Source of the DNA: Promethearchaeia archaeon
GTDB lineage: Archaea > Asgardarchaeota > Lokiarchaeia > Sigyniarchaeales > SOKP01
Reading direction: 5' to 3'
DNA length: 64,000 nt
Assembly (NCBI GenBank): GCA_029856045.1
Contig: JAHQWG010000016.1
Location: forward strand, 96,001 to 160,000
The position numbers were made by a program, and so were the translations under genes. Shown piece by piece: positions 8,008 through 33,223 of the stretch; positions within the stretch are counted from its first letter, which is position 1, and each line of letters starts with the position of its first letter. The notes beneath the pieces were generated by a model, which made no database searches, was not told where the DNA came from, and saw only the letters and a program-made list of their open reading frames with translations.

Positions 8008-8102
8008 TGCGCCCGGGGGGATTTGGACCCCCGACTTCACGGTTATATCGGCAGTAATTTTTACTTCAGCCGTGCGCTCTAACCAAGCTAAGCCACGGGC
8101 GC
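8008..8102 (-). tRNA. tRNA-Ile(GAT) with 20-nt intron at position 34/35 (8047-8066)
   Basis: Acceptor GCGCCCG/CGGGCGC-A, D arm GCTTAGCTTGGTTAGAGC, anticodon stem CACGG/CCGTG; BHB-like CGGC-TGA-AGTAA..TTACT-GCCG-ATA splices to loop CT-GAT-AA; isotype less certain than tRNA identity. Confidence 0.8.
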
Positions 8103-29600: not shown

Positions 29601-30017
29601 TTAGTAATTTATTTTCTCAATTAATAATTTATAAATTCCTTCTATGTCTTTAATTTCTTTTTCCAAAATACTTTGATCAATTTCTTTAGGGTTTAAATAT
29701 ATTTCTTGAATTATTTCATCTTTTTTTAATGATACTCCGGAGGTATGAATAATATTAAATTTTTTGAGAATTTCAAATATTTTTAATGTGTTTTCACTGG
29801 AAAAGTTAATTCCATAAGTTGTTATTTTTATGACAGTATCATTTTGGACTGGATAAACCATATATTTTATAAATTTTTTTGAAATAGTTCGTATTATTAA
29901 AATACTACTTTTATTTTTTAAACTTTGCAAGGTGGATTTTGAAATATCGATTTTTAATGAAAAATCATCATTAATTTTCTTCAAAAATGCGGTAGTTAAT
30001 TGTTTTTTTTCATTCAT
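29601..30017 (-). CDS. hypothetical protein (possible C-terminal ACT-like domain)
   Basis: 138-aa ORF overlapping the rnp2 stop; IIHTSGV motif. Confidence 0.6.
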   Translation of the reverse strand: MNEKKQLTTAFLKKINDDFSLKIDISKSTLQSLKNKSSILIIRTISKKFIKYMVYPVQNDTVIKITTYGINFSSENTLKIFEILKKFNIIHTSGVSLKKDEIIQEIYLNPKEIDQSILEKEIKDIEGIYKLLIEKINY

Positions 30018-30369
30018 ATTTTAAAGAAGCATTTTTTTCTAAGTGAAAGTTTTTTAAAATTTTTCTTAATTTTTTTATTGTTCCGCTTGTTTTTATTGGA
30101 TAAATAGATATTCGAGAATTCTGAAAATATCGTATCATTCCTAATGAAGTGATTACAATTTCTTTTGATGTATGAGCAAATCTTAAGATACCCCATCGTT
30201 CTTCTAAATTAAATTTAACTAGCCATAATCCGATTTTACTTGTCTCTTTTACGCCAAAATATCTAAATAAATTATTCCAAATGAGATTGATAATAGATTT
30301 TCCATCAATTGTTAGATCTTTTTCAATAATATAATAAAATAAAATATATCGCTGTCTTTCAAATTTCAA
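30010..30369 (-). CDS. rnp2: RNase P protein Pop5/Rpp14
   Basis: ERQRYILF, FG..GLWLV, GILRF.H, TSGTIKKLR. Confidence 0.88.
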   Translation of the reverse strand: MKFERQRYILFYYIIEKDLTIDGKSIINLIWNNLFRYFGVKETSKIGLWLVKFNLEERWGILRFAHTSKEIVITSLGMIRYFQNSRISIYPIKTSGTIKKLRKILKNFHLEKNASLKYE

Positions 30370-30391
30370 TTTTCATTTAACTCCAAATTAC

Positions 30392-31105
30392 TTATTTTAT
30401 TATTTTAACTCCATTTTCAACTATGTTTGGATCAATTTTTTTATTCAATTTTTGTATTAATTTGGATGGATTATCTTTTAAAGCTAATTTAGCGTTAGTA
30501 AAACTCATATCTAAAAGTGTCTGGCAAATACTTATTAATACTCTTGGGGATTTGTAATCAAGAAAACTTAAAAAATTTCCACTAATGAAATAATTGACTT
30601 TTTTAACTAAGGTCATTCGCAATGCAGAGAAAATAATACGAATATTTTTAGATTGAGTATATTTATTTTCATTAAAAATCGGAGCAAAAGAAAATTCAAT
30701 AAAAGAATTATACTGCTTGGAAAGGGATAATACCCCAGGAGTTAATGTTTTTGCAATAATTGGATTAGAGAAAGAAACAACATCAATTCTAGTATCTCTT
30801 GCACAAAAAATTTGTATCTCTTTATTTTCAGATTCCACTGATAAAATATGTGAAAAATTATTATACTTTTTGATTAATTTTTTTAACTCTGTAATATTTT
30901 TTGGTTTAAGATTTATTCTGAAATAGACATTAAGATCGATTGCTTTTCTTATTTTTTCTAATAATTTTTTTGGCAATTTTTCAATATTATTTACTGGTTC
31001 TATGATAACATTTTTAAAATCCAATTCTCCAAGAAATTTGAGTCTATTTATGATATCATCATATTTTTCAATGTCTACCGGGACTCTTGATTCAAAAAAC
31101 CCCAT
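30392..31105 (-). CDS. rnp3: RNase P protein Rpp30
   Basis: PHP-like barrel, R.DVV, IEFSF, SPR.L, NP; conserved L15e-Rpp30-Pop5 order. Confidence 0.8.
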   Translation of the reverse strand: MGFFESRVPVDIEKYDDIINRLKFLGELDFKNVIIEPVNNIEKLPKKLLEKIRKAIDLNVYFRINLKPKNITELKKLIKKYNNFSHILSVESENKEIQIFCARDTRIDVVSFSNPIIAKTLTPGVLSLSKQYNSFIEFSFAPIFNENKYTQSKNIRIIFSALRMTLVKKVNYFISGNFLSFLDYKSPRVLISICQTLLDMSFTNAKLALKDNPSKLIQKLNKKIDPNIVENGVKIIK

Positions 31106-31328
31106 TTATTATTAAACTCCTTTATTATGAAACATCTTCTAAAAATTTAATATTATTTTCAAAATTTTTATTTTATGTGATAAATTTTGTTATTGAGCTT
31201 GATTAATATATAATTCGTAAAAAGATAGGTCGATATATAAATTCACTTTAAATTATGCATCAATAATTATAGATTATAAACATAAGGATTTAAAAGATTA
31301 AAACTAAATGAATGATACTTAAAGTAAT

Positions 31329-31913
31329 TTATTTTCCACGTCCTTTATTTGCTCTGATGCTTGGGCGGGTTTTTTCAGAACCCCATCCTTTCTTATGCAA
31401 ACCTCTACCCCGTTTTCCTGCAGAAGTCAATCCTCTAAAGACTCTCTTCTTATGTTGTTGATGTACAATCCAATTTATATTTGGATCTAAGATAATCCTT
31501 GGATGAAGTGGATCAACAAATATCACTTCATAATACCACGATTTTCCGTCATCATACACTTTATATGAATTTAAGACTTCAAGATTTGGATATTTTTTCT
31601 GTGCTCTTTCTTCGGCAATTCTTTGTAAGTTTTTCCCAGGAGTAATTTTTGAGACACCCATAGCCCTTGGTTTTCGGCCCATTTTTGGTCTAGATTTACG
31701 TCTACTACCCTTTCGGATTCTCGAGCGAACGATACAATATCCTTGTTTTGCTTTATAACCTAATTCCCTCGCCCTATATAATTTAGTTGGTTTTTCTATG
31801 CGTTCGACTGATCTACCCTTTCTATATTTTATACCTCTATGCCAATAGTCCGTATCATGTCCAGTTTCGATATTCTGAAAAGTCTCCTTAATGAATCTAT
31901 ATCCTGACTTCAA
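31329..31913 (-). CDS. rpl15e: 50S ribosomal protein eL15
   Basis: RARELGYKAKQG, AEERA..KYPNLEVLNSY, RVFRGLTSAG, RPSIRAN. Confidence 0.97.
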   Translation of the reverse strand: MKSGYRFIKETFQNIETGHDTDYWHRGIKYRKGRSVERIEKPTKLYRARELGYKAKQGYCIVRSRIRKGSRRKSRPKMGRKPRAMGVSKITPGKNLQRIAEERAQKKYPNLEVLNSYKVYDDGKSWYYEVIFVDPLHPRIILDPNINWIVHQQHKKRVFRGLTSAGKRGRGLHKKGWGSEKTRPSIRANKGRGK

Positions 31914-32548: not shown

Positions 32549-32631
32549 ATATTTTGATTTTAAAATTTAAATAAATCTATAAATTAATATTAGATATTTT
32601 ATCAAATGAGATCTTTTTAAGGGGAAATAAT

Positions 32632-32846
32632 ATTAAAAAAATAATATTTGCAATTGCTGGAATAGGAAATGTTGGATCTGCATTAATTTAAGGAATAAAA
32701 TATTATTAAAAAATTGATGAAAATAATTTATACACTCATGGTTTAATGAATACCAAGAGTGGTAACCTCCTCCAATTCAAGCCCCTTCTGATGTATTAGC
32801 CAAACATTGGGTTCAAGAATTTATTGAAGGAAAAAGAGAAAGATAA
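32632..32846 (+). pseudogene. ino1: myo-inositol-1-phosphate synthase remnant (N- and C-termini only)
   Basis: IKKIIFAIAGIGNVGSALI*GIKYY*KIDEN..HGLM joined to PPIQAPSDVLAKHWVQEFIEGKRER*. Confidence 0.78.
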
Positions 32847-32855
32847 ATTGATAGG

Positions 32856-32930
32856 TGCATTCAGTTTGGGGCGACAAAATCATTGCCAAGAGCATTAGCT
32901 CAGATTGTCACTGAGTACATCATCATGCAT
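32856..32930 (-). ncRNA. box C/D methylation guide sRNA
   Basis: TGCAT/ATGCA terminal stem, C box ATGATGA, D' CTGA, internal hairpin, C'-like ATGATT, guide TTGTCGCCCCAAA, D box CTGA. Confidence 0.8.
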
Positions 32931-32953: not shown

Positions 32954-33223
32954 TTAAATTTTATTTTTAAATTCTACTCGCTTTTTAAATTCGATTCCTC
33001 TTTCAGTTATGTGAAATTCTTCATTAATTTTACTTATTAAATTAAGATCAATCAAAACGGGTAGTCTTCCATTAATGCATTCCATCGGGACTCCAGAAAA
33101 TAATTTAATAGTGTCTTTTTTCCTTGCCCCTTTTTCAATAGCAAGGAGAATCTCAAACCCCATATCTCCTATTAAATATTTCAAGTTATTATTATTTTTT
33201 GGTTTTCTTTTCTTAGCAGACAT
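32954..33223 (-). CDS. small winged-helix protein
   Basis: EILLAIEKG..IKLFSGVPMECINGRLPVLIDLNLI...FHITERG. Confidence 0.7.
   Translation of the reverse strand: MSAKKRKPKNNNNLKYLIGDMGFEILLAIEKGARKKDTIKLFSGVPMECINGRLPVLIDLNLISKINEEFHITERGIEFKKRVEFKNKI

What the first reader, a model, noticed from the sequence alone, without database searches (positions are those of the whole stretch)
32856..32930. Box C/D sRNA predicted to guide 2'-O-methylation of the 23S P-loop (Gm2251 equivalent)
Seen: complete C-D'-C'-D layout with a terminal stem and an extra hairpin between D' and C'. The D guide UGUCGCCCCA is complementary to the conserved LSU sequence UGGGGCGG(C/U)A, and the D+5 rule lands on the second G (E. 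coli G2251). Known: bacteria make Gm2251 with RlmB, and yeast uses snoRNA snR67 for the equivalent Gm2619. The target of the D' guide (UGUACUCAGUGACAAU) is not identified. Inference: an Asgard counterpart of a eukaryotic snoRNA function, retained beside a decayed gene.
Basis: partly seen in the sequence, partly recalled or inferred. Interest (0 to 1): 0.7.

Follow-up and report, generated by a model that had tools for sequence, protein, structure and literature searches.

The report
Asgard dual-guide rRNA methylation sRNA
This is a real small guide RNA of an Asgard (Loki-type) archaeon that most likely directs sugar methylation at two spots beside the ribosome's catalytic centre (G2251 and U2460, E. 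coli numbering); it is an ordinary kind of RNA, but the same pair of targets is kept from Sulfolobus-like archaea to Asgard, which is unusually deep conservation.

Summary
Confirmed: a box C/D sRNA on the minus strand, 32929–32856. Its D guide pairs (9 bp, one G·U) with this genome's own 23S P-loop, and D+5 falls on G2251. Its best site is helix 89, D'+5 = U2460, 212 nt away. That pairing is weak alone (17/200 shuffles as good), but guide and 23S co-vary in 15/15 genomes over 3–4 independent switches. The gene is conserved across the family, with terminal stem and internal hairpin covarying. The same two guides in swapped order occur in other Asgard lineages and in 32/61 genomes of the Sulfolobus class, including the RNA-seq-detected, target-less Sulfolobus acidocaldarius sR110. 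So it is not Asgard-specific and not shown to be an snR67 orthologue. Fibrillarin, Nop5 and L7Ae-family genes are present; RlmB was not found. The decayed neighbour (Ino1) is real but incidental. Expression and methylation are untested here. The scan found this family before on other Asgard DNA. New member of a known kind.

The parts
32856..32929 (-). box C/D sRNA gene (ends predicted from the terminal stem)
   Evidence: homologues in 96/134 family genomes
32925..32929 (-). 5' arm of terminal stem (UGCAU)
   Evidence: 5 pairs, all with changes on both sides among 13 homologues
32917..32923 (-). C box AUGAUGU (preferred register; the alternative AUGAUGA is 32926-32920)
   Evidence: k-turn geometry and alignment with homologues
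32904..32916 (-). D' guide; pairs with 23S helix 89 5' strand, N+5 = U2460 (E. coli numbering; own 23S nt 2652)
   Evidence: best site in the cognate rRNA; guide-target covariation
32900..32903 (-). D' box CUGA (perfect here, degenerate in most relatives)
32885..32899 (-). hairpin between D' and C'; loop motif GCUC kept in 32 of 34 family variants
   Evidence: covarying stem; loop count
32877..32883 (-). C' box AUGAUUU
32865..32876 (-). D guide; pairs with the 23S P-loop (helix 80), N+5 = G2251 (own 23S nt 2440)
   Evidence: compensatory changes in family f2
32861..32864 (-). D box CUGA
   Evidence: invariant in alignment A1
32856..32860 (-). 3' arm of terminal stem (AUGCA)
32954..33223 (-). 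upstream 89-aa winged-helix gene; the sRNA starts about 25 nt after its stop and follows it in families f1, f2 and f3 (probable co-transcript, inferred)
   Evidence: Pfam HTH_45 E 2.9e-5, just under cut-off; synteny
32629..32840 (+). remnant of an inositol-3-phosphate synthase (Ino1) gene: codons 4-49 with two stops, joined to codons 349-372; incidental neighbour, convergent with the sRNA

Best explanation
A dual-guide archaeal box C/D sRNA. It is probably cut from the 3' end of the transcript of the upstream winged-helix gene (inferred) and assembles with L7Ae, Nop5 and fibrillarin (established mechanism; genes present). The D guide opens helix 80 and places G2251 for 2'-O-methylation. The D' guide pairs with the 5' strand of helix 89, 212 nt downstream, and places U2460. 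It is a circularly permuted member of an old family shared by Thermoproteota and Asgard archaea, in which the P-loop guide normally sits at D' and the helix-89 guide at D; S. acidocaldarius sR110 is the sequenced member. Shown here: boxes, structure, conservation, both complementarities and their covariation. Inferred: expression, the two methylations, and descent of both orders from one gene.
For: Cognate P-loop pairing, -19.4 kcal/mol, 1/200 shuffles. Helix 89 is the best D' site in the cognate rRNA. 23S position 2458 is U with guide A in 8 genomes and C with guide G in 7, 15/15 concordant, needing 4 changes on a 23S tree, at least 3 forced by well-supported branches. G042 changes both targets and both guides follow. 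Family f2 flips P-loop 2248 from C to G and the guide's -2 base becomes C. Swapped-order form: 61 of the 80 listed GTDB hits are archaeal, nearly all Thermoproteota by title; 32/61 genomes of the Sulfolobus class, control 0; also Asgard families f4, f7, f9, f19, f20, f33. sR110 is RNA-seq detected (PMC4644070 supplement) and matches genome G499 at the same coordinate. Fibrillarin, Nop5 and L7Ae-family genes are present; the only SpoU protein is TrmJ-like, not RlmB.
Against: Neither duplex has 9 consecutive Watson-Crick pairs, the usual prediction threshold (PMC4644070). The helix-89 duplex alone is not significant (17/200 shuffles) and needs a bulged A. Many relatives have degenerate D' boxes, and some have 3-4 extra bases before D', so U2460 methylation may be absent there. 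In G310 and G175 the cognate helix-89 pairing ranks only 7th and 5th of 10 targets. Guides are constrained by their targets, so two separate origins of the same pair cannot be excluded by sequence alone.
Confidence: 0.82

Rival explanations
1. Only the P-loop guide methylates. The helix-89 arm pairs without methylating, as an anchor or folding chaperone that holds two parts of domain V during large-subunit assembly.
For: D' boxes are degenerate in most family members and the spacing to D' varies. The helix-89 duplex carries a conserved mismatch or bulge at -8/-9. Long-range dual guides have been proposed as chaperones (PMC4644070).
Against: The N+5 pair A-U2460 is Watson-Crick in all 15 genomes. 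In Thermoproteota this guide sits before a perfect D box (the search pattern required one) with 8-11 pairs. Pyrobaculum sR17 and Ignicoccus sR132 are predicted to methylate the same U (alignment U2734). This genome's D' box is perfect.
Confidence: 0.1
2. [quoted passage not shown]
For: RNAalifold predicts this 5-bp helix in all 13 family sequences; in G059 and G060 it reaches -12 kcal/mol.
Against: The helix hardly varies, so it carries no information. Thermoproteota members have a C x A mismatch in it. In G042, G038 and G175 the guide follows the 23S, not the other guide (-12.3 vs -1.4, -19.2 vs -5.3, -9.4 vs -3.5 kcal/mol). The cognate helix-89 duplex is more stable than the internal one in all 15 genomes.
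Confidence: 0.04
3. A direct orthologue of yeast snR67, guiding Gm2619 and the Um2724 equivalent, as the first reader suggested testing.
For: The guide is identical to the Rfam snR67 consensus over 12 nt, including the wobble U at -10.
Against: Rfam score 11.9 against a gathering score of 55. No pairing of the D' guide in the Um2724-equivalent region. The Um2724 guide is limited to Saccharomycotina (PMC5824354). In snR67 the Gm2619 guide is at D', here at D.
Confidence: 0.02
4. A chance look-alike in an AT-rich spacer.
For: A loose C/D pattern scan of the genome gives 39 candidates with D-guide pairing score 8 or more, most of them probably chance. The RNA does not fold better than shuffles (z -0.89). 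No Rfam family matches at gathering level.
Against: Conservation in 96/134 family genomes with control 0, fixed gene order, covarying stems and guide-target covariation.
Confidence: 0.01

Closest known systems
Sulfolobus acidocaldarius Sac-sR110 (Dennis et al. 2015, PMC4644070, additional file 1; RNA-seq coverage 5636; targets listed as NP/NP)
   Same: Same two targets by my pairing: 11 bp on the P-loop with N+5 = G2251, and 8 bp on helix 89 with N+5 = U2460 (sequences).
   Different: Guide order is swapped (P-loop guide at D', helix-89 guide at D); the G·U wobble is at -6, not -10; 3-nt spacer instead of a hairpin between D' and C'; degenerate D' box. The paper assigns it no target.
Archaeal sRNAs predicted to guide G2251 (alignment G2520): an sR7 with U2544 and a Methanopyrus sRNA with G2490 (PMC4644070); Pyrobaculum sR17 and Ignicoccus sR132 for U2734 (= U2460)
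   Same: Same individual target sites, same N+5 mechanism.
   Different: The two sites are on separate sRNAs, each paired with a nearby second site under 100 nt away; here one RNA spans 212 nt.
Eukaryotic clan CL00053: yeast snR67 (RF01177), human SNORD31/U31, plant snoR35; also trypanosome TBR7 (RF00295)
   Same: Guide the equivalent nucleotide (yeast Gm2619). The snR67 and TBR7 consensus guides share the core UGUCGCCCCA with the wobble U. The clan is placed in LECA (PMC3511168).
   Different: Scores far below gathering (11.9/55 and 16.6/45); no helix-89 guide seen in the consensus; snR67's second target (Um2724) is not shared.
Bacterial RlmB (Gm2251)
   Same: Same product at the same nucleotide.
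   Different: Stand-alone SpoU protein; not found in this genome.

Membership tests
Archaeal box C/D methylation-guide sRNA | 5' C box (RUGAUGA) and 3' D box (CUGA) closed by a terminal stem (k-turn geometry) | tested here: met
   C AUGAUGU or AUGAUGA, D CUGA; 5-bp stem with changes on both sides in all 5 pairs
Archaeal box C/D methylation-guide sRNA | internal D' and C' boxes, two guides of about 10-14 nt, length 50-80 nt | tested here: met
   D' CUGA, C' AUGAUUU, guides 13 and 12 nt, 74 nt
Archaeal box C/D methylation-guide sRNA | guide complementary to cognate RNA with a Watson-Crick pair at N+5 | tested here: met
   C-G2251 and A-U2460, with covariation
Archaeal box C/D methylation-guide sRNA | at least 9 consecutive Watson-Crick pairs (the strict prediction rule of Dennis et al. 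2015; a working threshold, not a definition) | tested here: not met
   7 WC + G·U + 1 WC on the P-loop; 8-pair run with two G·U plus 4 WC past a bulge on helix 89. The RNA-seq-detected sR110 misses the same rule.
Archaeal box C/D methylation-guide sRNA | host encodes L7Ae, Nop5 and fibrillarin | tested here: met
Archaeal box C/D methylation-guide sRNA | expressed as a stable small RNA that directs 2'-O-methylation | not testable with these tools
sR110-type G2251+U2460 family (Thermoproteota and Asgard) | one guide to G2251 and one to U2460 in the same RNA | tested here: met
sR110-type G2251+U2460 family (Thermoproteota and Asgard) | P-loop guide at D', helix-89 guide at D | tested here: not met
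   reverse order in families f1, f2, f3; sR110 order in f4, f7, f9, f19, f20, f33; read as a circular permutation
snR67 / SNORD31 / snoR35 clan (CL00053) | Rfam gathering score | tested here: not met
   snR67 11.9 bits against 55
snR67 / SNORD31 / snoR35 clan (CL00053) | guide for the Gm2619/Gm2251 site | tested here: met
   12 of 12 nt identical to the snR67 consensus guide
snR67 (Saccharomycotina) | second guide for Um2724 | tested here: not met
   best D' pairing in 23S nt 2500-2600 is -5.2 kcal/mol, against -13.8 on helix 89
snR67 / SNORD31 / snoR35 clan (CL00053) | common descent rather than convergence on the same target | tested here: inconclusive
   shared wobble U at -10 in most Lokiarchaeia-type guides, yeast and trypanosome, but most Thermoproteota put the wobble at -6 or -7; one character is not enough

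The most novel reading that the evidence does not exclude
The G2251+U2460 sRNA is a single gene lineage older than the Thermoproteota-Asgard split, kept because it clamps helix 80 and helix 89 together during folding of the peptidyl-transferase centre. Its P-loop half (at D', with the wobble U) was inherited by eukaryotes as the snR67/SNORD31/snoR35 clan, which would make it one of very few individual snoRNA lineages traceable from archaea into LECA. The conserved loop between D' and C' in this family may add eukaryote-like extra pairing next to the helix-89 target.
Probability: 0.25. Interest if true: 0.65.

Novelty: new member of a known kind. Interest (0 to 1): 0.38.

Why it matters
The mechanism is textbook and Gm2251 guides are known in archaea, so the Asgard sRNA by itself is ordinary. 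The wider family is of modest real interest. [quoted passage not shown] It gives targets to a published orphan, Sac-sR110, in a genetically tractable host, so the proposed chaperone role of long-range guides can be tested at the catalytic centre. A 2012 survey found only one archaeal sRNA (sR12) matching a LECA snoRNA by site and could not exclude convergence (PMC3511168); this family is a further candidate with the same caveat.

Tried and rejected
Rfam at gathering level: nothing at the locus or in 11 homologous loci; weak matches to TBR7 and snR67 reflect only the shared guide and boxes. A D' target in tRNAs, 16S or the Um2724 region: none better than helix 89. A second C/D-like element on the plus strand at 32711-32796 (snoU18, E 5.1): lies inside the Ino1 remnant and has no convincing target; rejected. 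Promoter and terminator scan: nothing above chance, and it is a bacterial model. Folding energy: not better than shuffles, as expected for a protein-scaffolded RNA. A hit titled 'Methanobacteriota' (L178) falls in the same class as the Sulfolobales genomes, so it is no evidence for Euryarchaeota. The 19 bacterial hits of the GTDB scan lack the conserved helix-89 guide and a regular C' box and are read as chance. A review equates Haloarcula Gm1950 with G2251; from my own knowledge the equivalent is G2284, so I did not use it. mis-extracted the helix-89 rows of G000 and G060; these were redone. A target for the GCUC loop: 6 GAG(C/U) sites lie near the targets and 38 in the 23S, so none can be singled out.

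Full report
Observation. The element is on the minus strand, 32929-32856: stem, C box, 13-nt guide, D' CUGA, a 5-bp hairpin, C' AUGAUUU, 12-nt guide, D CUGA, stem. The C box can be read in two registers. Rfam has no family for it.

Is it real? A DNA search found full-length homologues in several genera of the family. The guide plus D box pattern occurs in 96 of 134 other family genomes, the reversed control in none of them. In 13 aligned homologues, 9 of the 10 pairs of the terminal stem and the D'-C' hairpin have changes on both sides, and sliding the partners drops pairing from 97% to 25-53% (the structure came from these sequences, so this leans in its favour). The gene lies just 3' of the same small winged-helix gene in families f1, f2 and f3.

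First target. The genome has one 23S gene. The D guide pairs with its P-loop over 9 bp with one G·U; N+5 is nt 2440, E. coli G2251. It is the best site in the rRNA, and 1 of 200 shuffled guides does as well. In family f2 the P-loop stem is altered and the guide follows: C at -2 against G2248 in G044, G050 and G055, and further changes at -10 to -12 in G042.

Second target. The D' guide's best site is the 5' strand of helix 89, N+5 = nt 2652 = E. coli U2460, 212 nt downstream: 8 pairs (two G·U), a bulged A, then 4 more. Alone this is not significant (17 of 200 shuffles). The support is comparative. In 15 genomes with both the sRNA and the 23S, position 2458 is U with guide A (8) or C with guide G (7), without exception. 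The state changes 4 times on a 23S tree, at least 3 forced by well-supported branches. Cognate pairings beat all 100,000 random reassignments (kin are not independent, so this is not a p-value). G042 has UU at 2462-2463 and its guide has AA. G310 and G175 are weak cases. The Um2724 region offers nothing, and that snR67 target is limited to Saccharomycotina (PMC5824354).

How wide is the family? Other Asgard lineages (f4 in the same order, f7, f9, f19, f20, f33) carry the same two guides in the opposite order. So does S. acidocaldarius sR110, an RNA-seq-detected sRNA that Dennis et al. 2015 list without targets (PMC4644070). It is in 16 of 121 sampled genomes of that phylum and 32 of 61 of the Sulfolobus class, controls 0. 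The simplest reading is one old gene, permuted in the ancestor of f1+f2+f3 (inferred). Circular permutation of archaeal sRNAs is documented (PMC6009581). Many Asgard families gave no hit with these strict patterns; that is not absence. Euryarchaeota and DPANN were not searched separately.

Mechanism. Fibrillarin and Nop5 are adjacent on the same contig, L7Ae-family genes are present, and the only SpoU protein is TrmJ-like. By the established N+5 rule the RNA should give Gm2251 and Um2460. In E. coli the G2251 methyl blocks a misfolded contact to D2449, and modifications at the base of helix 89 keep that helix rigid (PMC13469067), so both marks fit a role in shaping the catalytic centre (inference). 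Degenerate D' boxes in many relatives leave room for pairing without methylation at U2460. The two guides can also pair with each other over 5-8 bp, but that helix is nearly invariant, broken in Thermoproteota, and weaker than the rRNA duplex in all 15 genomes.

The decayed gene. 32629-32840 (+) is the remnant of an inositol-3-phosphate synthase gene: codons 4-49 with two stops joined to codons 349-372. It is intact in the four sister genomes and absent from this position in other genera, so it is unrelated to the sRNA.

Comparison and verdict. It works like, and is, an archaeal box C/D guide. sRNA guides for G2251 were predicted in three archaea and Gm is seen at that site in T. kodakarensis. 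It shares 12 guide nucleotides with the snR67 consensus, including a wobble U also in TBR7, but fails the family score and the second target, and most Thermoproteota put the wobble elsewhere; descent into eukaryotes stays open. I found no paper describing the G2251+U2460 family. Earlier notes of this scan reported the same family on other Asgard DNA; my target assignments and the sR110 match were made from my own tests. New member of a known kind; interest 0.38, carried by the depth of conservation and the testability in Sulfolobus.

Noticed in passing
window 32629-32840 (+): Ino1 (inositol-3-phosphate synthase) lost recently: about 300 codons deleted and two stops, intact in four sister genomes. 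A more distant Ino1-like match lies on contig C46 (38% over 84 aa).
   Followed up: partly
L130-L209 (archaeal hits) and family alignment A1: Almost every P-loop guide carries a G·U wobble (at -6, -7 or -10); none of the 61 archaeal hits of the GTDB scan is a perfect complement although the pattern allowed it. This suggests selection against a fully paired duplex.
   Followed up: partly
window 32885-32899 (-): The loop of the D'-C' hairpin keeps GCUC in 32 of 34 family variants while the stem covaries; family f2 lacks it. It could pair with GAG just 5' of the helix-89 target, but the match is too short to assign.
   Followed up: partly
L045, L046, L051, L053 (23S of family f2): Helix 80 of family f2 is changed (G2248 with C2256 in place of C2248 with G2256), unusual for this conserved stem.
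   Followed up: partly
G000 C27:171155(-), C32:26716(+), C52:14922(-), C50:1055(-), C3:4031(-): Other plausible box C/D sRNA candidates in this genome, with rRNA-complementary D guides.
   Followed up: no
L062 (G139) and L094 (G314): Asgard sRNAs with the P-loop guide at D but a different D' guide whose target was not identified.
   Followed up: no
window 30010-31913 (-); L119; L123: The sRNA lies about 1 kb from a run of L15e and RNase P subunit-like genes; the swapped-order copies in G175 and G310 also sit beside RNase P / exosome-cluster-like genes (recognised by eye from the translations).
   Followed up: no
window 8008-8102 (-): tRNA gene with an insertion at the anticodon loop, probably an intron.
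   Followed up: no
window 32711-32796 (+): C/D-like look-alike with a hairpin inside the Ino1 remnant; no target found, read as chance.
   Followed up: yes
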